Positions 3,207 to 38,837 of a stretch of 64,000 nucleotides of DNA are shown here, one piece after another. The stretch is taken from NCBI GenBank assembly GCA_964016885.1, contig OZ024740.1, positions 394,258,001-394,322,000 on the forward strand, read 5' to 3'. The number at the start of each line of letters is the position of its first letter. The stretch's first letter is position 1. The notes below the pieces were generated by a model. It was not told where the DNA came from and made no database searches. It saw nothing but the letters and a program-made list of their open reading frames with translations. The stretch comes from Eledone cirrhosa. Lineage: Eukaryota. The position numbers and the translations under genes were made by a program.

Positions 3207-4933
3207 ATCGCTATAGAATAGAATACGTCACGTATTACAATTTGAGATTCTCGATAAAAGCAAGGGAAGTAATCTCAAATTGTAATACGTGACGTATTCT
3301 ATTCTATAGCGATTGGGTCTTCAAAATGTTTATTATAAACATACAGAATATTTTCGAATATTCTATGTTTGTCTTCACATATATATCGCTATTTCAGAGC
3401 ATTAAATCCAAATTCTAATTTCTGCCGGACCGACAACCGCTCTTTCAAACCAGTTCCTGTACACAGCTAAGTATTCTATAAGTCTCTAGCTGTGTCGTTC
3501 TCGATAAAAGCATTGGATATGTAATCCTGATGATTTCTAATAAGAATGAAACGCGTAGGTTACTTCCCTTGCTTTTATCGAGAATCTCAAATTGTAATAC
3601 GTGACGTATTCTATTCTATAGCGATTGGGTCTTCAAAATGTTTATTATAAACATACAGAATATTTTCGAATATTCTATGTTTGTCTTCACATATATATCG
3701 CTATTTCAGAGCATTAAATCCAAATTCTAATTTCTGCCGGACCGGCTACCGCTCTTTCAAACCAGTTCCTGTACACAGCTAAGTATTCTATAAGTCTCTA
3801 GCTGTGTCGTTCTCGATAAAAGCATTGGATATGTAATCCTGATGATTTCTAATAAGAATGAAACGCGTAGGTTACTTCCCTTGCTTTTATCGAGAATCTC
3901 AAATTGTAATACGTGATGTATTCTATTCTATAGCGATTGGGTCTTCAAAATGTTTATTATAAACATACAGAATATTTTCGAATATTCTATGTTTGTCTTC
4001 ACATATATATCGCTATTTCAGAGCATTAAATCCAAATTCTAATTTCTGCCGGACCGGCTACCGCTCTTTCAAACCAGTTCCTGTACACAGCTAAGTATTC
4101 TATAAGTCTCTAGCTGTGTCGTTCTCGATAAAAGCATTGGATATGTAATCCTGATGATTTCTAATAAGAATGAAACGCGTAGGTTACTTCCCTTGCTTTT
4201 ATCGAGAATCTCAAATTGTAATACGTGACGTATTCTATTCTATAGCGATTGGGTCTTCAAAATGTTTATTATAAACATACAGAATATTTTCGAATATTCT
4301 ATGTTTGTCTTCACATATATATCGCTATTTCAGAGCATTAAATCCAAATTCTAATTTCTGCCGGACTGGCTACCGCTCTTTCAAACCAGTTCCTGTACAC
4401 AGCTAAGTATTCTATAAGTCTCTAGCTGTGTCGTTCTCGATAAAAGCATTGGATATGTAATCCTGATGATTTCTAATAAGAATGAAACGCGTAGGTTACT
4501 TCCCTTGCTTTTATCGAGAATCTCAAATTGCAATACGTGACGTATTCTATTCTATAGCGATTGGGTCTTCAAAATGTTTATTATAAACATACAGAATATT
4601 TTCGAATATTCTATGTTTGTCTTCACATATATATCGCTATTTCAGAGCATTAAATCCAAATTCTAATTTCTGCCGGACCGACAACCGCTCTTTCAAACCA
4701 GTTCCTGTACACAGCTAAGTATTCTATAAGTCTCTAGCTGTGTCGTTCTCGATAAAAGCATTGGATATGTAATCCTGATGATTTCTAATAAGAATGAAAC
4801 GCGTAGGTTACTTCCCTTGCTTTTATCGAGAATCTCAAATTGTAATACGTGACGTATTCTATTCTATAGCGATTGGGTCTTCAAAATGTTTATTATAAAC
4901 ATACAGAATATTTTCGAATATTCTATGTTTGTC

Positions 4934-4937
<4 letters not shown>
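3207..4937 (+). mobile_element. 312-bp hammerhead-bearing tandem array (~5.3 units) with a short inverted 5' arm (3207-3272); retrozyme/Penelope-like non-autonomous element
   Basis: GTAATCCTGATGA recurs at 3521, 3833, 4145, 4457 and 4769 (period 312). 3207-3272 is the reverse complement of part of the unit. The right end runs into (TA)n. Confidence 0.85.
3521..3563 (+). ncRNA. Minimal type I hammerhead ribozyme (also at 3833, 4145, 4457, 4769)
   Basis: GTAATC-CTGATGA-TTTCT AATA AGAAT-GAAA-CGCG-TA-GGTTAC. Stem I is GUAAUC/GGUUAC with one G-U pair, stem II is UUCU/AGAA, stem III is palindromic, and the cleavage triplet is GUA. Confidence 0.85.
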
Positions 4938-4966
<29 letters not shown>

Positions 4967-26910: not shown

Positions 26911-29900
26911 AGAGTGTGAGTAAGTACCGGTTCAACGGAGACGATAAAAACAAATAACGAAACGAAATTAAATTTCGTTTCGTTTGTAACTCACTTTTGT
27001 ATGACTGACGCTTAAACAATTAAGTTAAAGATGTACATCCATATATGTATACTGAAATACTAGTATGTATATGAATACACACACGTATACATATGTAGAT
27101 GTACCAAGTTTTTTCACTGGTCACTTTACTGTGAGTGGCCAGCTATTCTGTATGTAAACACACAGACAAACCGGTTTTTAGAGTCATACTGGTTTTTGAG
27201 GAAACACCTTTCCTCTATTCTCCAGAAAGCCAGACAAGGAATATTGAACTAGTTTCGTTGTTGTTACAACTCATCAGCAATATTTACCTATCTTCCGGCC
27301 TCTCTAGAGAATCGTAAAAGCACATATCGTTATATGCTTTTTCTATGAAAATTAGTAGTGGGCAGACTAATTTGCATAGAGTGTGAGTAAGTACCGGTTC
27401 AACGGAGACGATAAAAACAAATAACGAAACGAAATTAAATTTCGTTTCGTTTGTAACTCACTTTTGTATGACTGACGCTTAAACAATTAAGTTAAAGATG
27501 TACATCCATATATGTATACTGAAATACTAGTATGTATATGAATACACACACGTATACATATGTAGATGTACCAAGTTTTTTCACTGGTCACTTTACTGTG
27601 AGTGGCCAGCTATTCTGTATGTAAACACACAGACAAACCGGTTTTTAGAGTCATACTGGTTTTTGAGGAAACACCTTTCCTCTATTCTCCAGAAAGCCAG
27701 ACAAGGAATATTGAACTAGTTTCGTTGTTGTTACAACTCATCAGCAATATTTACCTATCTTCCGGCCTCTCTAGAGAATCGTAAAAGCACATATCGTTAT
27801 ATGCTTTTTCTATGAAAATTAGTAGTGGGCAGACTAATTTGCATAGAGTGTGAGTAAGTACCGGTTCAACGGAGACGATAAAAACAAATAACGAAACGAA
27901 ATTAAATTTCGTTTCGTTTGTAACTCACTTTTGTATGACTGACGCTTAAACAATTAAGTTAAAGATGTACATCCATATATGTATACTGAAATACTAGTAT
28001 GTATATGAATACACACACGTATACATATGTAGATGTACCAAGTTTTTTCACTGGTCACTTTACTGTGAGTGGCCAGCTATTCTGTATGTAAACACACAGA
28101 CAAACCGGTTTTTAGAGTCATACTGGTTTTTGAGGAAACACCTTTCCTCTATTCTCCAGAAAGCCAGACAAGGAATATTGAACTAGTTTCGTTGTTGTTA
28201 CAACTCATCAGCAATATTTACCTATCTTCCGGCCTCTCTAGAGAATCGTAAAAGCACATATCGTTATATGCTTTTTCTATGAAAATTAGTAGTGGGCAGA
28301 CTAATTTGCATAGAGTGTGAGTAAGTACCGGTTCAACGGAGACGATAAAAACAAATAACGAAACGAAATTAAATTTCGTTTCGTTTGTAACTCACTTTTG
28401 TATGACTGACGCTTAAACAATTAAGTTAAAGATGTACATCCATATATGTATACTGAAATACTAGTATGTATATGAATACACACACGTATACATATGTAGA
28501 TGTACCAAGTTTTTTCACTGGTCACTTTACTGTGAGTGGCCAGCTATTCTGTATGTAAACACACAGACAAACCGGTTTTTAGAGTCATACTGGTTTTTGA
28601 GGAAACACCTTTCCTCTATTCTCCAGAAAGCCAGACAAGGAATATTGAACTAGTTTCGTTGTTGTTACAACTCATCAGCAATATTTACCTATCTTCCGGC
28701 CTCTCTAGAGAATCGTAAAAGCACATATCGTTATATGCTTTTTCTATGAAAATTAGTAGTGGGCAGACTAATTTGCATAGAGTGTGAGTAAGTACCGGTT
28801 CAACGGAGACGATAAAAACAAATAACGAAACGAAATTAAATTTCGTTTCGTTTGTAACTCACTTTTGTATGACTGACGCTTAAACAATTAAGTTAAAGAT
28901 GTACATCCATATATGTATACTGAAATACTAGTATGTATATGAATACACACACGTATACATATGTAGATGTACCAAGTTTTTTCACTGGTCACTTTACTGT
29001 GAGTGGCCAGCTATTCTGTATGTAAACACACAGACAAACCGGTTTTTAGAGTCATACTGGTTTTTGAGGAAACACCTTTCCTCTATTCTCCAGAAAGCCA
29101 GACAAGGAATATTGAACTAGTTTCGTTGTTGTTACAACTCATCAGCAATATTTACCTATCTTCCGGCCTCTCTAGAGAATCGTAAAAGCACATATCGTTA
29201 TATGCTTTTTCTATGAAAATTAGTAGTGGGCAGACTAATTTGCATAGAGTGTGAGTAAGTACCGGTTCAACGGAGACGATAAAAACAAATAACGAAACGA
29301 AATTAAATTTCGTTTCGTTTGTAACTCACTTTTGTATGACTGACGCTTAAACAATTAAGTTAAAGATGTACATCCATATATGTATACTGAAATACTAGTA
29401 TGTATATGAATACACACACGTATACATATGTAGATGTACCAAGTTTTTTCACTGGTCACTTTACTGTGAGTGGCCAGCTATTCTGTATGTAAACACACAG
29501 ACAAACCGGTTTTTAGAGTCATACTGGTTTTTGAGGAAACACCTTTCCTCTATTCTCCAGAAAGCCAGACAAGGAATATTGAACTAGTTTCGTTGTTGTT
29601 ACAACTCATCAGCAATATTTACCTATCTTCCGGCCTCTCTAGAGAATCGTAAAAGCACATATCGTTATATGCTTTTTCTATGAAAATTAGTAGTGGGCAG
29701 ACTAATTTGCATAGAGTGTGAGTAAGTACCGGTTCAACGGAGACGATAAAAACAAATAACGAAACGAAATTAAATTTCGTTTCGTTTGTAACTCACTTTT
29801 GTATGACTGACGCTTAAACAATTAAGTTAAAGATGTACATCCATATATGTATACTGAAATACTAGTATGTATATGAATACACACACGTATACATATGTAG

Positions 29901-32168
29901 ATGTACCAAGTTTTTTCACTGGTCACTTTACTGTGAGTGGCCAGCTATTCTGTATGTAAACACACAGACAAACCGGTTTTTAGAGTCATACTGGTTTTTG
30001 AGGAAACACCTTTCCTCTATTCTCCAGAAAGCCAGACAAGGAATATTGAACTAGTTTCGTTGTTGTTACAACTCATCAGCAATATTTACCTATCTTCCGG
30101 CCTCTCTAGAGAATCGTAAAAGCACATATCGTTATATGCTTTTTCTATGAAAATTAGTAGTGGGCAGACTAATTTGCATAGAGTGTGAGTAAGTACCGGT
30201 TCAACGGAGACGATAAAAACAAATAACGAAACGAAATTAAATTTCGTTTCGTTTGTAACTCACTTTTGTATGACTGACGCTTAAACAATTAAGTTAAAGA
30301 TGTACATCCATATATGTATACTGAAATACTAGTATGTATATGAATACACACACGTATACATATGTAGATGTACCAAGTTTTTTCACTGGTCACTTTACTG
30401 TGAGTGGCCAGCTATTCTGTATGTAAACACACAGACAAACCGGTTTTTAGAGTCATACTGGTTTTTGAGGAAACACCTTTCCTCTATTCTCCAGAAAGCC
30501 AGACAAGGAATATTGAACTAGTTTCGTTGTTGTTACAACTCATCAGCAATATTTACCTATCTTCCGGCCTCTCTAGAGAATCGTAAAAGCACATATCGTT
30601 ATATGCTTTTTCTATGAAAATTAGTAGTGGGCAGACTAATTTGCATAGAGTGTGAGTAAGTACCGGTTCAACGGAGACGATAAAAACAAATAACGAAACG
30701 AAATTAAATTTCGTTTCGTTTGTAACTCACTTTTGTATGACTGACGCTTAAACAATTAAGTTAAAGATGTACATCCATATATGTATACTGAAATACTAGT
30801 ATGTATATGAATACACACACGTATACATATGTAGATGTACCAAGTTTTTTCACTGGTCACTTTACTGTGAGTGGCCAGCTATTCTGTATGTAAACACACA
30901 GACAAACCGGTTTTTAGAGTCATACTGGTTTTTGAGGAAACACCTTTCCTCTATTCTCCAGAAAGCCAGACAAGGAATATTGAACTAGTTTCGTTGTTGT
31001 TACAACTCATCAGCAATATTTACCTATCTTCCGGCCTCTCTAGAGAATCGTAAAAGCACATATCGTTATATGCTTTTTCTATGAAAATTAGTAGTGGGCA
31101 GACTAATTTGCATAGAGTGTGAGTAAGTACCGGTTCAACGGAGACGATAAAAACAAATAACGAAACGAAATTAAATTTCGTTTCGTTTGTAACTCACTTT
31201 TGTATGACTGACGCTTAAACAATTAAGTTAAAGATGTACATCCATATATGTATACTGAAATACTAGTATGTATATGAATACACACACGTATACATATGTA
31301 GATGTACCAAGTTTTTTCACTGGTCACTTTACTGTGAGTGGCCAGCTATTCTGTATGTAAACACACAGACAAACCGGTTTTTAGAGTCATACTGGTTTTT
31401 GAGGAAACACCTTTCCTCTATTCTCCAGAAAGCCAGACAAGGAATATTGAACTAGTTTCGTTGTTGTTACAACTCATCAGCAATATTTACCTATCTTCCG
31501 GCCTCTCTAGAGAATCGTAAAAGCACATATCGTTATATGCTTTTTCTATGAAAATTAGTAGTGGGCAGACTAATTTGCATAGAGTGTGAGTAAGTACCGG
31601 TTCAACGGAGACGATAAAAACAAATAACGAAACGAAATTAAATTTCGTTTCGTTTGTAACTCACTTTTGTATGACTGACGCTTAAACAATTAAGTTAAAG
31701 ATGTACATCCATATATGTATACTGAAATACTAGTATGTATATGAATACACACACGTATACATATGTAGATGTACCAAGTTTTTTCACTGGTCACTTTACT
31801 GTGAGTGGCCAGCTATTCTGTATGTAAACACACAGACAAACCGGTTTTTAGAGTCATACTGGTTTTTGAGGAAACACCTTTCCTCTATTCTCCAGAAAGC
31901 CAGACAAGGAATATTGAACTAGTTTCGTTGTTGTTACAACTCATCAGCAATATTTACCTATCTTCCGGCCTCTCTAGAGAATCGTAAAAGCACATATCGT
32001 TATATGCTTTTTCTATGAAAATTAGTAGTGGGCAGACTAATTTGCATAGAGTGTGAGTAAGTACCGGTTCAACGGAGACGATAAAAACAAATAACGAAAC
32101 GAAATTAAATTTCGTTTCGTTTGTAACTCACTTTTGTATGACTGACGCTTAAACAATTAAGTTAAAGA

Positions 32169-35120
32169 TGTGTTTACATACAGAATAGCTGGCCACTCAC
32201 AGTAAAGTGACCAGTGAAAAAACTTGGTACATCTACATATGTATACGTGTGTGTATTCATATACATACTAGTATTTCAGTATACATATATGGATGTACAT
32301 CTTTAACTTAATTGTTTAAGCGTCAGTCATACAAAAGTGAGTTACAAACGAAACGAAATTTAATTTCGTTTCGTTATTTGTTTTTATCGTCTCCGTTGAA
32401 CCGGTACTTACTCACACTCTATGCAAATTAGTCTGCCCACTACTAATTTTCATAGAAAAAGCATATAACGATATGTGCTTTTACGATTCTCTAGAGAGGC
32501 CGGAAGATAGGTAAATATTGCTGATGAGTTGTAACAACAACGAAACTAGTTCAATATTCCTTGTCTGGCTTTCTGGAGAATAGAGGAAAGGTGTTTCCTC
32601 AAAAACCAGTATGACTCTAAAAACCGGTTTGTCTGTGTGTTTACATACAGAATAGCTGGCCACTCACAGTAAAGTGACCAGTGAAAAAACTTGGTACATC
32701 TACATATGTATACGTGTGTGTATTCATATACATACTAGTATTTCAGTATACATATATGGATGTACATCTTTAACTTAATTGTTTAAGCGTCAGTCATACA
32801 AAAGTGAGTTACAAACGAAACGAAATTTAATTTCGTTTCGTTATTTGTTTTTATCGTCTCCGTTGAACCGGTACTTACTCACACTCTATGCAAATTAGTC
32901 TGCCCACTACTAATTTTCATAGAAAAAGCATATAACGATATGTGCTTTTACGATTCTCTAGAGAGGCCGGAAGATAGGTAAATATTGCTGATGAGTTGTA
33001 ACAACAACGAAACTAGTTCAATATTCCTTGTCTGGCTTTCTGGAGAATAGAGGAAAGGTGTTTCCTCAAAAACCAGTATGACTCTAAAAACCGGTTTGTC
33101 TGTGTGTTTACATACAGAATAGCTGGCCACTCACAGTAAAGTGACCAGTGAAAAAACTTGGTACATCTACATATGTATACGTGTGTGTATTCATATACAT
33201 ACTAGTATTTCAGTATACATATATGGATGTACATCTTTAACTTAATTGTTTAAGCGTCAGTCATACAAAAGTGAGTTACAAACGAAACGAAATTTAATTT
33301 CGTTTCGTTATTTGTTTTTATCGTCTCCGTTGAACCGGTACTTACTCACACTCTATGCAAATTAGTCTGCCCACTACTAATTTTCATAGAAAAAGCATAT
33401 AACGATATGTGCTTTTACGATTCTCTAGAGAGGCCGGAAGATAGGTAAATATTGCTGATGAGTTGTAACAACAACGAAACTAGTTCAATATTCCTTGTCT
33501 GGCTTTCTGGAGAATAGAGGAAAGGTGTTTCCTCAAAAACCAGTATGACTCTAAAAACCGGTTTGTCTGTGTGTTTACATACAGAATAGCTGGCCACTCA
33601 CAGTAAAGTGACCAGTGAAAAAACTTGGTACATCTACATATGTATACGTGTGTGTATTCATATACATACTAGTATTTCAGTATACATATATGGATGTACA
33701 TCTTTAACTTAATTGTTTAAGCGTCAGTCATACAAAAGTGAGTTACAAACGAAACGAAATTTAATTTCGTTTCGTTATTTGTTTTTATCGTCTCCGTTGA
33801 ACCGGTACTTACTCACACTCTATGCAAATTAGTCTGCCCACTACTAATTTTCATAGAAAAAGCATATAACGATATGTGCTTTTACGATTCTCTAGAGAGG
33901 CCGGAAGATAGGTAAATATTGCTGATGAGTTGTAACAACAACGAAACTAGTTCAATATTCCTTGTCTGGCTTTCTGGAGAATAGAGGAAAGGTGTTTCCT
34001 CAAAAACCAGTATGACTCTAAAAACCGGTTTGTCTGTGTGTTTACATACAGAATAGCTGGCCACTCACAGTAAAGTGACCAGTGAAAAAACTTGGTACAT
34101 CTACATATGTATACGTGTGTGTATTCATATACATACTAGTATTTCAGTATACATATATGGATGTACATCTTTAACTTAATTGTTTAAGCGTCAGTCATAC
34201 AAAAGTGAGTTACAAACGAAACGAAATTTAATTTCGTTTCGTTATTTGTTTTTATCGTCTCCGTTGAACCGGTACTTACTCACACTCTATGCAAATTAGT
34301 CTGCCCACTACTAATTTTCATAGAAAAAGCATATAACGATATGTGCTTTTACGATTCTCTAGAGAGGCCGGAAGATAGGTAAATATTGCTGATGAGTTGT
34401 AACAACAACGAAACTAGTTCAATATTCCTTGTCTGGCTTTCTGGAGAATAGAGGAAAGGTGTTTCCTCAAAAACCAGTATGACTCTAAAAACCGGTTTGT
34501 CTGTGTGTTTACATACAGAATAGCTGGCCACTCACAGTAAAGTGACCAGTGAAAAAACTTGGTACATCTACATATGTATACGTGTGTGTATTCATATACA
34601 TACTAGTATTTCAGTATACATATATGGATGTACATCTTTAACTTAATTGTTTAAGCGTCAGTCATACAAAAGTGAGTTACAAACGAAACGAAATTTAATT
34701 TCGTTTCGTTATTTGTTTTTATCGTCTCCGTTGAACCGGTACTTACTCACACTCTATGCAAATTAGTCTGCCCACTACTAATTTTCATAGAAAAAGCATA
34801 TAACGATATGTGCTTTTACGATTCTCTAGAGAGGCCGGAAGATAGGTAAATATTGCTGATGAGTTGTAACAACAACGAAACTAGTTCAATATTCCTTGTC
34901 TGGCTTTCTGGAGAATAGAGGAAAGGTGTTTCCTCAAAAACCAGTATGACTCTAAAAACCGGTTTGTCTGTGTGTTTACATACAGAATAGCTGGCCACTC
35001 ACAGTAAAGTGACCAGTGAAAAAACTTGGTACATCTACATATGTATACGTGTGTGTATTCATATACATACTAGTATTTCAGTATACATATATGGATGTAC
35101 ATCTTTAACTTAATTGTTTA
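32169..35120 (+). mobile_element. 467-bp hammerhead tandem array, inverted right arm (~6.3 units; ribozyme sense on plus strand)
   Basis: Reverse complement of the left arm, with a switch at TGT microhomology 32169-32171. It ends at TTGTTTA into (TA)n. Confidence 0.92.
32514..32558 (+). ncRNA. Minimal type I hammerhead ribozyme (6 copies, every 467 bp, to 34849-34893)
   Basis: AATATTGCTGATGAGTTGTAACAACAACGAAACTAGTTCAATATT. Confidence 0.88.
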
Positions 35121-35136
35121 TATATATATATATATA

Positions 35137-35278
<142 letters not shown>

Positions 35279-35558
35279 TATATATATAAACGGAAAAAAT
35301 GAAATGAAATTTCATTTGCCCCTCTTAGTACGGCTGTTACTTAAATATAAGTAAGTATACGTACATACATATATGTATACAGACGTACAGTAGTATGTAT
35401 ATATATATACATACATTCACACATATATATATATATGTACGTATGGATTCACCAAACATTTATTATAATGCTCGGTGTGTTTGTAAACAAACATCCCGTA
35501 TAAAGCCGCAGTGTCTAGCAACCACCGTTGCTCGTTTGTTCAACACTGACAAAGGAAT

Positions 35559-35597
35559 GTTGTACTAGTTTCAAGCTTGTTAGCTATCGTCAGCAAC
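35559..35597 (-). ncRNA. Minimal hammerhead ribozyme
   Basis: GTTG-CTGACGA-TAGCT AACA AGCTT-GAAA-CTAG-TA-CAAC. Confidence 0.75.
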
Positions 35598-36029
35598 GTA
35601 TACCTTCCTGCCAGATTGTTGAACGTCTGAAAGTATATACTATCCTTATGCATATTAACGGCTGAGTAGCCCAATTTGCATATCGACACTACGGCTTAAT
35701 ACGGGATGTTTGTTTACAAACACACCGAGCATTATAGTAAATGTTTGGTGAATCCATACGTACATATATATATATGTGTGCATGTATGTATATATATATA
35801 CATACTACTGTACGTCTGTATACATATATGTATGTACGTATACATACTTATATTTAAGTAACAGCAGTACTAAGAGCGGGAAAGAAATTTCGTTTCATTT
35901 TTTCCGTTTATCGTTTTCGGTGCACCCGGCCGATTAACCCACTCGATATGCAGATTGGGCTGCTCAGCCGTTAATATGCATAAGGAAAGTATATACTTTC
36001 AGACGTTCAACCATCTGGCAGGAAGGTAT

Positions 36030-36072
36030 ACGTTGCTGACGATAGCTAATAAGCTTGAAACTAGTACATCGT
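36030..36072 (+). ncRNA. Minimal hammerhead ribozyme
   Basis: ACGTTG-CTGACGA-TAGCT AATA AGCTT-GAAA-CTAG-TA-CATCGT, with one stem I mismatch. Confidence 0.72.
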
Positions 36073-36439
36073 TCCTTTGTCAGTGTTGAACAAACGAGCA
36101 ACGGTGGTTGCTAGACACTGCGGCTTTATATGGGATGTTTGTTTACAAACACACCGAGCATTATAATAAATATTCGGTGAATCCATACGTACATATATAT
36201 ATGTGTGCATGTATGTATATATATATATATACATACTACTGTACGTCTGTATACATATATGTATGTACGTGTACATACTTATATATATATATATATGCAT
36301 ATATATATATATATATATATATATTCCACTGGCCGTTGACTAGCCAATACGGAGCCACAAGATCGATGTGATGGATATTCCTGTTGACGGCAGTAATGAT
36401 AGTGGTACTTGTATTGATGGTGGTGGGAGTGGGTAGTGT

Positions 36440-38720
36440 TGGTGGTGAGGCAGGTCACTGGTGATGGTGGTAGTGGTGGTGGTGAAGGAGGTCACTGGTG
36501 ATGGTGGTGGTGGTGGTGAGTGAGGTCACTGGTGATGGTGGTGGTGGTGGTGAAGGAGGTCACTGGTGATGATGGTGGTGGTGGTGGTGAAGGAGGTCAT
36601 TGGTGATGGTGGTGGTGGTGGTGAAGGAGGTCACTGGTGATGATGGTGGTGGTGGTGAAGGAGGTCACTGGTGATGGTGGCGGTGGTGGTGAAGGAGGTC
36701 ACTGGTGATGGTGGCGGTGGTGGTGAAAGAGGTCACTGGTGATGGTGGCGGTGGTGGTGAAGGAGGTCACTGGTGATGGTGGCGGTGGTGGTGAAGGAGG
36801 TTACTGGTGATGGTGGCGGTGGTGGTGAAAGAGGTCACTGGTGATGGTGGCGGTGGTGGTGAAGGAGGTCACTGGTGATGGTGGCGGTGGTGGTGAAGGA
36901 GGTCACTGGTGATGGTGGCGGTGGTGGTGAAGGAGGTCACTGGTGATGGTGGCGGTGGTGGTGAAGGAGGTCACTGGTGATGGTGGTGGTGGTGGTGAAG
37001 GAGGTCACTGGTGATGGTGGCGGTGGTGGTGAAGGAGGTCACTGGTGATGGTGGTGGTGGTGGTGAAGGAGGTCACTGGTGATGGTGGCGGTGGTGGTGA
37101 AGGAGGTCACTGGTGATGGTGGCGGTGGTGGTGAAGGAGGTCACTGGTGATGATGGTGGTGGTGGTGGTGAAGGAGGTCACTGGTGATGGTGGTGGTGGT
37201 GGTGAAAGAGGTCACTGGTGATGGTGGTGGTGGTGGTGAAGGAGGTCACTGGTGATGGTGGTGGTGGTGGTGAAGGAGGTCACTGGTGATGGTGGTGGTG
37301 GTGGTGAAGGAGGTCACTGGTGATGGTGGTGGTGGTGGTGAAGGAGGTCACTGGTGATGGTGGTGGTGGTGGTGAAGGAGGTCACTGGTGATGGTGGTGG
37401 TGGTGGTGAAGGAGGTCACTGGTGATGGTGGTGGTGGTGGTGAAGGAGGTCACTGGTGATGGTGGCGGTGGTGGTGAAGGAGATCACTGGTGATGGTGGT
37501 GGTGGTGGTGGTGAGGCAGGTCACTGGTGATGGTGGTGGTGGTGAAGGAGGTCACTGGTGATGGTGGTGGTGGTGGTGGTGGTGAAGGAGGTCACTGGTG
37601 ATGGTGGTGAGGGAGGTCACTGGTGATGGTGGTGGTGGTGGTGGTGGTGAAGGAGGTCACTGGTGATGGTGGTGGTGGTGGTGAGGCAGGTCACTGGTGG
37701 TGGTGGTGGTGGTGGTGAAGGAGGTCACTGGTGATGGTGGTGGTGGTGGTGGTGGTGAAGGAGGTCACTGGTGATGGTGGTGGTGGTGGTGAAGGAGGTC
37801 ACTGGTGAAGGTGGTGGTGGTGGTGGTGGTGAAGGAGGTCACTGGTGATGGTGGTGGTGGTGGTGAGGCAGGTCACCGGTGGTGGTGGTGGTGAAGGAGG
37901 TCACTGGTGATGGTGGTGGTGGTGGTGGTGGTGAAGGAGGTCACTGGTGATGGTGGTGGTGGTGGTGAAGGAGGTCACTGGTGATGGTGGTGGTGGTGGT
38001 GAAGGAGGTCACTGGTGATGGTGGTGGTGGTGGTGAAGGAGGTCACTGGTGATGGTGGTGGTGGTGGTGAAGGAGGTCACTGGTGATGGTGGCGGTGGTG
38101 GTGAAGGAGGTCACTGGTGATGGTGGTGGTGGTGGTGAAGGAGGTCACTGGTGATGGTGGTGGTGGTGGTGAAGGAGATCACTGGTGATGGTGGTGGTGG
38201 TGGTGAAGGAGGTCACTGGTGATGGTGGTGGTGGTGGTGAAGGAGGTCACTGGTGATGGTGGTGGTGGTGGTGAAGGAGGTCACTGGTGATGGTGGTGGT
38301 GGTGGTGAAGGAGGTCACTGGTGATGGTGGCGGTGGTGGTGAAGGAGGTCACTGGTGATGGTGGCGGTGGTGGTGAAGGAGGTCACTGGTGATGGTGGCG
38401 GTGGTGGTGAAGGAGGTCACTGGTGATGGTGGTGGTGGTGGTGAAGGAGGTCACTGGTGATGGTGGTGGTGGTGGTGAGGCAGGTCACTGGTGATGGTGG
38501 TGGTGGTGGTGAAGGAGGTCACTGGTGATGGTGGTGGTGGTGGTGGTGGTGGTGAAGGAGGTCACTGGTGATGGTGGTGGTGGTGGTGAGGGAGGTTACT
38601 GGTGATGGTGGTGGTGGTGGTGATGAGGGAGGTCACTGGTAATGGTGATGGTGGCGGTAAGGGAGGTTACTGGTAATGGTGATGGTAGTGGTGAGGGAGG
38701 TCACTGGTGATGGTGGAGGT
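36440..38720 (+). repeat. 34-bp G-rich minisatellite GAAGGAGGTCACTGGTGAT(GGT)n, ~65 copies
   Basis: Direct sequence. The GGT count varies per unit. Confidence 0.95.
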
Positions 38721-38837
38721 GGTGGAGGTTAGGAAGCCCCCTGGTGTTGGCGGTCGTGGCAGTGAGGAGGCCGCAGGTGGTGGGGGTGAGTAGGCTGCTG
38801 GTAGTTGCTGATTGTGGGTTGTGTAGTGGTTTTGCAA

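What the first reader, a model, noticed from the sequence alone, without database searches (positions are those of the whole stretch)
29340..35120. Giant palindrome with both ribozyme-sense 3' ends primed outward into (TA)n (twin-priming signature)
Seen: the array flips at a TGT microhomology (32169-32171), giving ~2.8-kb perfect arms around a ~125-bp spacer (32172-32296). In ribozyme sense both outer junctions end at a U-rich TA (…TTGTTTTTA and …TTGTTTA) that continues as (TA)n. Inference: both strands of the self-complementary (TA)n target were nicked and each primed cDNA on the RNA. The two cDNAs were then joined by microhomology, analogous to L1 twin priming and inverted Penelope pLTRs. 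Such a palindrome should be cruciform-prone and could yield long dsRNA.
Basis: partly seen in the sequence, partly recalled or inferred. Interest (0 to 1): 0.75.

Follow-up and report, generated by a model that had tools for sequence, protein, structure and literature searches.

The report
Twin-armed ribozyme retroelement with Penelope footprint
This 8.6-kb mirror-image repeat is one young copy of a small protein-free repeat with a hammerhead-ribozyme motif; most sampled copies in this genome have two back-to-back arms that almost always end at two different fixed points, which likely records a borrowed Penelope-type enzyme copying the RNA from both cut strands of the target DNA.

Summary
Each unit has a type I hammerhead motif, so it fits an animal non-LTR retrozyme. 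In 105 loci, all 70 multi-arm insertions point both ribozyme-sense 3' ends outward. The two ends are fixed and different: site A (unit position ~303) and site B (229-234). Coordinates alone give 41 A/B pairs among 45 close neighbours. This is the Penelope-like 'inverted copy with a one-sided tail' layout, with a ~70-nt tail. The arms share one haplotype. Fold-back cannot explain 15 of 57 loci. Two-strand priming is the best model, but priming sites are fixed rather than set by U-rich annealing as in L1. Not shown: long-read support for this junction, expression, a circular template, the partner enzyme, cruciforms or dsRNA. The layout is published for Penelope elements; I found no explicit A-plus-B rule in print. 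This scan noted the pattern before, in other families of this genome and in other genomes.

The parts
26343..26476 (.). Left (TA)n target tract with TGCA interruptions, (TA)29 TGCA (TA)14 TGCA (TA)21
26477..32171 (-). Left arm: 12.2 identical 467-bp units, ribozyme sense on the minus strand; 3' end at site A (unit position 303) at 26477; 5' end at position 213
26477..26545 (-). The ~69-nt 'tail' (unit positions 235-303), present at the outer end of this arm only; holds a predicted 13-bp hairpin (positions 263-291, about 26489-26517)
32169..32171 (.). Inversion junction, 3-nt overlap TGT joining the two 5' ends (unit positions 213 and 85)
32172..32296 (.). Unpaired stretch in the tightest palindrome register (125 bp); ordinary unit sequence, not a separate spacer
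32169..35120 (+). Right arm: 6.3 identical units, ribozyme sense on the plus strand; 3' end at site B (unit position 234) at 35120
32503..32574 (+). One of 18 type I hammerhead motifs (6 on +, 12 on -): CTGATGA, 5-bp stem II, GAAA, palindromic minimal helix III, predicted cut after GTT at 32551
   Evidence: Rfam HH9, E 6.7e-08, 37.7 bits, below the gathering score of 52
35121..35288 (.). Right (TA)n target tract, (TA)9 TGCA (TA)27 TGCA (TA)15 TGCA (TA)21; may contain a 64-bp direct duplication of the left tract's end
35286..36287 (.). Separate insertion of a sister family (429-nt unit, 267 of 476 aligned columns identical) with the same two-arm layout, ending at the homologous A (274) and B (~213-219) sites

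Best explanation
The palindrome is one young insertion of a non-coding 467-bp hammerhead-motif repeat, likely made when a Penelope-type reverse transcriptase/endonuclease supplied in trans nicked both strands of a (TA)n tract and primed one cDNA from each nick at two fixed RNA sites about 70 nt apart. Steps: (1) the array is transcribed and the hammerhead cuts, giving monomers, circles or uncut multimers (inferred). (2) The enzyme, probably a dimer, binds near the tail hairpin and nicks both target strands in a stagger (inferred; both-strand nicking and extension, two start sites and a predicted dimer are reported for the anole element, PMC11167929). (3) One nick starts at site A, the other at site B (fixed, paired ends shown; priming inferred). 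(4) Both enzymes copy the same RNA species, often across the ribozyme cut without a scar (shared haplotype and clean crossings shown; circle versus uncut multimer open). (5) The two cDNA 3' ends are joined head to head by short microhomology, blunt joining or small inserts (junction types shown). Array length may come from rolling round a circle, from later unequal exchange, or both.
For: Polarity: 70 of 70 multi-arm groups begin on - and end on + (109 groups in 105 loci, the other 39 single-armed). End rule: loci picked by the ribozyme motif gave 15 A/B, 0 A/A, 0 B/B, 2 other; loci picked by an A end gave 38 A/B, 0 A/A, 3 other, 1 cut by the fetch edge. Coordinates only: 41 of 45 neighbour pairs within 15 kb are outward A/B, about 3.4 neighbours expected by chance. 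11 of 39 single arms carry a 7-16 nt micro-arm, each of the other end type. One template species: median arm-to-arm difference 0.5% against 4.4% between loci, 55 loci. Independent arms: lengths uncorrelated (rho -0.03, 48 loci), 5' positions unrelated (KS p 0.22), neither arm contained in the other in 15 of 57. Target duplication: interrupted direct repeats of 12-64 bp in 9 of 91 loci against 5 of 1500 shuffled flank pairs. The A and B sites are conserved in a 56%-identical sister family. Public contigs of one sample show A ends running into (TA)n and four other junctions of the same polarity. Stem II of the hammerhead has a compensatory change across copies.
Against: Three B/B insertions exist (L124, L127, L137), found among 10 two-arm groups that I picked for lacking a listed A partner. 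No autonomous partner was found: three Penelope-like families checked share no terminal sequence with the unit. 42 of 57 loci are still geometrically compatible with fold-back, and a few junctions sit on internal hairpins (L050, L119). Variants shared by both arms in register, the direct sign of one heterogeneous molecule, were seen credibly in only 1 of 20 loci; most of the 12 counted are gap-placement artefacts. The anole study saw no difference in start site between top and bottom strands, which neither predicts nor excludes strict A/B pairing. One variant is confined to 6 units of one arm (L058+59), showing later remodelling. The window's own junction is not confirmed by reads.
Confidence: 0.72

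Rival explanations
1. Two separate RNA molecules of the same species (dual priming), each on one enzyme subunit, one primed at A and one at B. The product looks the same as the one-RNA model.
For: It avoids one enzyme displacing the other's cDNA. A single highly expressed source locus would also give matching arms. One end in L204 looks like an arm of another family joined to a sister-family micro-arm (a single case). Dual priming was proposed for L1 (PMC2837659, passages).
Against: Arms match each other much better than they match other loci, although subfamilies differ by up to about 12%. Strict A/B pairing needs an asymmetry that one bound RNA explains most simply. L087 shares two G>A changes in register in both arms.
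Confidence: 0.13
2. Fold-back or self-priming: one priming event, then the cDNA or an antisense transcript folds at an internal palindrome and is copied back (the self-priming model of PMC3846280); the endonuclease then resolves the second end at the tail boundary.
For: The unit is rich in hairpins (z -10.75). Some junctions lie on palindromes (L050, L119, and the tail hairpin in L046, L086, L115). 42 of 57 loci have one arm containable in the other.
Against: 15 of 57 loci break containment. Only 5 of 57 junctions have 5' positions within 15 nt of each other (about 3.8 expected by my calculation). Either arm may be the longer one (Wilcoxon p 0.64). In this window the 5' positions are 128 nt apart.
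Confidence: 0.1
3. Assembly or long-read fold-back artefact at this locus, or a later inversion in a plain tandem satellite.
For: All 18.5 units are identical, so their number could be mis-assembled. The junction was not recovered in contigs of three runs of one sample.
Against: The flanks are not mirrored. The ends obey the A/B rule seen in older, diverged loci. Other junctions of this polarity stand in public contigs. There is no (TA)n at the centre, so it is not two separate insertions.
Confidence: 0.05

Closest known systems
Animal non-LTR retrozymes (Cervera and de la Pena 2020, PMC7229834, passages read; Li et al. 2026, bioRxiv 10.64898/2026.07.22.740005, parts 1-3 of 5 read, covering the main text)
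   Same: Non-coding tandem repeat of a few hundred bases, low GC (35%), a type I hammerhead in every unit, highly self-paired, long target duplications, proposed mobilisation by Penelope-like enzymes through circles.
   Different: I saw no head-to-head arms or fixed paired ends described in what I read of either paper ('inverted' and 'orientation' have 0 hits in PMC7229834; supplements unseen). Circles, expression and cleavage are shown there and untested here.
Endonuclease-bearing Penelope-like element insertions (PMC8557442 and PMC3846280, passages read)
   Same: Inverted 5'-truncated copy, head-to-head arrangement, a tail at one end only, (TA)n preference, hammerhead in the terminal repeat.
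   Different: No ORF. The tail is 69-74 nt rather than 30-40. The arms are multi-kilobase arrays of one unit. No terminal homology to a coding element was found.
Anole Poseidon element PAc in vitro (PMC11167929, parts 1-3 of 4 read: main text and methods; supplements not read)
   Same: Two internal start sites bounding the tail, both strands nicked and extended, AT-rich target, priming without real homology, predicted dimer.
   Different: That study does not link one site to one strand within a single insertion or explain inversions; here the pairing is near-obligate, but only as a genomic footprint.
L1 twin priming and dual priming (PMC2837659, passages read)
   Same: Both target nicks prime cDNA, the sense 3' ends face outward, internal junction with some microhomology, target duplication.
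   Different: In L1 the first site is the poly(A) tail and the second a variable internal annealing site, giving two fragments with an internal deletion. Here both sites are fixed and internal, the arms cover the same sequence, and most insertions are inverted.

Membership tests
Animal non-LTR retrozyme | Tandem units, each with a canonical type I hammerhead (short palindromic helix III) | tested here: met
   18 motifs in the array; Rfam HH9 E 6.7e-08, below gathering score; stem II covariation; architecture as in PMC4209133 (passages)
Animal non-LTR retrozyme | Non-coding, no long ORF | tested here: met
   Longest open frame in a 4-unit concatemer is 57-62 codons
Animal non-LTR retrozyme | Dispersed, mobile copies | tested here: met
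   5,130 exact motif matches; 2,391 A-end junctions with (TA)n
Animal non-LTR retrozyme | Self-cleavage and circular RNA in vivo | not testable with these tools
   Needs cleavage assay and RNA data; contigs cannot tell a circle from tandem DNA
Penelope-like element insertion footprint | Inverted 5'-truncated copy, head to head | tested here: met
   70 of 70 multi-arm groups
Penelope-like element insertion footprint | Tail at one end only | tested here: met
   60 A/B, 0 A/A, 3 B/B among 63 groups with both ends classed; tail 69-74 nt, longer than the published 30-40
Penelope-like element insertion footprint | AT-rich or (TA)n target with duplication | tested here: met
   (TA)n at both ends in 61 of 69 groups, partly by selection; informative duplications in 9 of 91 against 5 of 1500
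Autonomous Penelope-like element | ORF with reverse transcriptase and GIY-YIG endonuclease | tested here: not met
   No ORF in the unit; the one long insert between arms (L031) is an endonuclease/exonuclease-phosphatase plus RT element
Non-autonomous derivative of a named Penelope family | Terminal sequence shared with a coding element | tested here: inconclusive
   None in three families within 1.5 kb of the matched coding region; other families and longer flanks unchecked
L1-type twin priming | Second priming at a variable internal site; non-overlapping fragments with an internal deletion | tested here: not met
   Fixed sites and overlapping arms

The most novel reading that the evidence does not exclude
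A Penelope enzyme dimer holds one small circular ribozyme RNA, starts one subunit on each side of a ~70-nt tail, and rolls round the circle from both nicked target strands at once, each subunit displacing the other's cDNA, so that a multi-kilobase head-to-head array is written in one step. This would explain the Penelope inverted-plus-tail layout and retrozyme spread with a single mechanism.
Probability: 0.35. Interest if true: 0.72.

Novelty: new variant of a known kind. Interest (0 to 1): 0.48.

Why it matters
How Penelope-like elements make their inverted copies and one-sided tails is called undefined in PMC8557442, and that they move retrozymes is so far a hypothesis. A protein-free repeat that carries the full Penelope footprint, with a near-obligate 'one end at A, one end at B' rule, turns both into a direct test for the existing in vitro system: each doubly extended target should carry one A start and one B start from one RNA. 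The locus itself is one of thousands of such insertions and has no shown function.

Tried and rejected
Rfam at gathering threshold: nothing in the window. DNA search of the own genome with the unit: nothing, common words are skipped; patterns used instead. Sequencing runs: no RNA holder listed. The window's junction was not found in contigs of X1, X3, X4 (one sample) or X2; a hole proves nothing. X2, X5 and X6 hold the unit as contigs that close on themselves with few variants; library kinds are not on record, and tandem DNA gives the same picture, so this is not counted as evidence for circles. Raw reads of X21 laid 0, which is no test. Partner search: Penelope-like ORFs were found in fetched loci and three families followed; no shared terminus. 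A lead in L204 proved to be a single locus. First junction analysis overcounted inserts because of subfamily mismatches; redone, where 19 of 58 apparent inserts are probably still inflated. First duplication test had a 17% control rate (50 of 300) and was replaced. Stops near the ribozyme cut: 15 of 114 against 9.3 expected, p 0.044, weak. Template jumping at the cut as the main source of long arms: only 3 of 355 crossings show a 1-nt loss, but the count needs an intact upstream motif. Two independent insertions: rejected, no (TA)n at the centre and one haplotype. Rows dropped: L082 (twin of L081); L130, multi-segment groups and groups with unclassed ends were left out. All surveyed loci are from the first ~122 Mb of contig C1.
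Full report
Observation. The array is two exact 467-bp periodic runs, 26477-32171 (12.19 units) and 32169-35120 (6.32 units), in opposite orientation and overlapping at TGT. Both outer ends run into (TA)n. The flanks are not mirror images: a terminal-inverted-repeat element lies on the left and a sister-family insertion on the right.

The unit. It is 35% GC, has no frame above 62 codons and folds far better than shuffles (z -10.75). Each unit carries a type I hammerhead motif with a palindromic minimal helix III (Rfam HH9, E 6.7e-08, below the gathering score). Stem II shows a compensatory change across copies. PMC4209133 (passages) describes this architecture as active in dimers. The motif has 5,130 exact matches in this 3-Gb genome. 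This fits an animal non-LTR retrozyme (PMC7229834, passages; bioRxiv 10.64898/2026.07.22.740005, parts 1-3 of 5). Cleavage and expression are untested.

Survey of copies. I fetched loci from the first ~122 Mb of contig C1 in three ways: by the ribozyme motif (the 27 loci among the first 100 listed hits, no bias as to ends), by an A end, and by a B end lacking a listed A partner. After dropping one twin locus, 105 loci (window included) gave 109 insertion groups. All 70 multi-arm groups begin on the minus strand and end on the plus strand, so both sense 3' ends face outward. With position 1 set after the predicted cut, 3' ends fall at site A (300-304, mostly 303) or site B (224-235, mostly 229 and 234). 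Motif-picked groups: 15 A/B, no A/A or B/B, 2 other, and 11 single-armed. A-picked: 38 A/B, no A/A, 3 other, 1 cut off. B-picked, biased against A: 6 A/B, 3 B/B, 1 other. The window is A/B. Of 39 single-arm groups, 11 carry a 7-16 nt micro-arm, each of the other type. A check on coordinates alone (100 A ends, 58 B ends, 107 Mb) found 45 neighbour pairs within 15 kb, 41 of them outward A/B, with about 3.4 expected by chance; the one A/A pair is two separate insertions. The sister family next door ends at the aligned A and B positions.

What the arms say. Within a locus the arms differ by a median 0.5%, against 4.4% between loci (55 loci); in the window 0 of 467. Arm lengths are uncorrelated and 5' positions unrelated. 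In 15 of 57 loci neither arm is contained in the other, which a fold-back copy cannot give. Of 58 junctions, 14 have 3 nt or more of overlap (6.6% expected; p 2e-5), 20 have 1-2 nt, 5 are blunt and 19 show apparent inserts, some inflated by subfamily mismatches. Only 3 of 355 crossings of the cut site show a 1-nt loss, so the template was mostly continuous there: a circle or an uncut multimer. A weak excess of 5' ends near the cut (15 of 114, p 0.044) suggests some linear templates. Interrupted direct repeats of 12-64 bp flank 9 of 91 insertions against 5 of 1500 controls; the window's 64 bp is ambiguous. Variant patterns in L058+59 and L120+61 show that arrays also change after insertion, so 12 and 6 units are not proof of rolling-circle copying.

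Mechanism. Penelope-like insertions are described with an inverted 5'-truncated copy, a 30-40 bp tail at one end and a (TA)n bias (PMC8557442, passages; PMC3846280, passages, which proposes self-priming). The anole element nicks and extends both strands, starts at two internal sites that bound the tail without homology to the target, and is predicted to be a dimer (PMC11167929, main text and methods). My best reading (0.72) joins these: one RNA species, two nicks, one start at A and one at B, and head-to-head joining. Fixed paired ends, shared haplotype, arm independence and junction types are shown; the enzyme, the dimer, single-molecule templating and the circle are inferred. Rivals are two RNA molecules (0.13), fold-back (0.10) and artefact or later inversion (0.05). 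The L1 analogy holds for outward polarity only: L1 twin priming uses a variable internal site and leaves an internal deletion (PMC2837659, passages).

What failed. The junction of this locus was not recovered from public contigs, though one sample shows A ends into (TA)n and four other junctions of the same polarity (library type unknown). No partner was found among three Penelope-like families; one of them ends in a U-rich stretch before (TA)n, which is only suggestive. Cruciforms and dsRNA were not tested; predicted cuts 383 and 255 nt past the junction would limit a fold-back transcript, unless pairing blocks the ribozyme (inference).

Novelty. The layout is published for Penelope elements and the retrozyme link is proposed. 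I found no explicit A-plus-B rule or inverted retrozyme arrays in seven searches or in the text I read; most subscription papers are outside the library, and I read no supplements, where insertion models may be drawn. Earlier notes of this scan report the same pattern for other families in this genome and in other genomes; none was listed for this unit. They are unchecked notes; my reading was set before them, and four gave leads that I partly tested. Verdict: a real, young insertion; a new variant of a known kind; interest 0.48.

Noticed in passing
window 35286-36287: Sister hammerhead family (429-nt unit, about 56% identical) with the same two-arm layout and homologous A and B ends; more copies in fetched loci.
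   Followed up: partly
window 23549-25222 and 3207-4946: Two unrelated tandem families (492 and 312 bp) also have a minus arm followed by a plus arm ending at different unit positions; both contain CTGATGA, hammerhead status not tested.
   Followed up: partly
window 25925-26345: About 420-bp element with near-perfect ~83-bp terminal inverted repeats between TA runs, MITE-like; forms the left flank.
   Followed up: no
L032, L060, L084, L086, L089 flanks; window 26343-26476 and 35121-35288: Several tandem copies of one interrupted (TA)n motif on both sides of the insertion, more than a single target duplication; unexplained, could be iterative copying or slippage.
   Followed up: no
L204:4063-4427: An arm of another hammerhead element joined to a short end like the sister family's A end, then (TA)30: a possible two-RNA chimera, single case.
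   Followed up: partly
L124, L127, L137: B/B exceptions; two are multi-segment, and L124 has a duplicated 81-bp outer end with mirrored flank repeats.
   Followed up: partly
L073:4856-7198 and L140-L169: A very young Penelope-like family, at least 58 copies at 98-100% protein identity and mostly without stops over 780 residues, with Cys motifs beside the GIY-YIG-like region; clade not tested.
   Followed up: partly
L031:4287-7406: An intact 1,040-aa endonuclease plus reverse transcriptase ORF with a PHD finger lies between an A arm and a B arm; a near-identical ORF start stands in L124.
   Followed up: no
L081 and L082: Identical insertion at two places 17.7 kb apart: segmental duplicate or assembly twin.
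   Followed up: no
window 36432-38725 and 52354-55649: G-rich minisatellites of 34 and 73 bp with strong strand skew.
   Followed up: no
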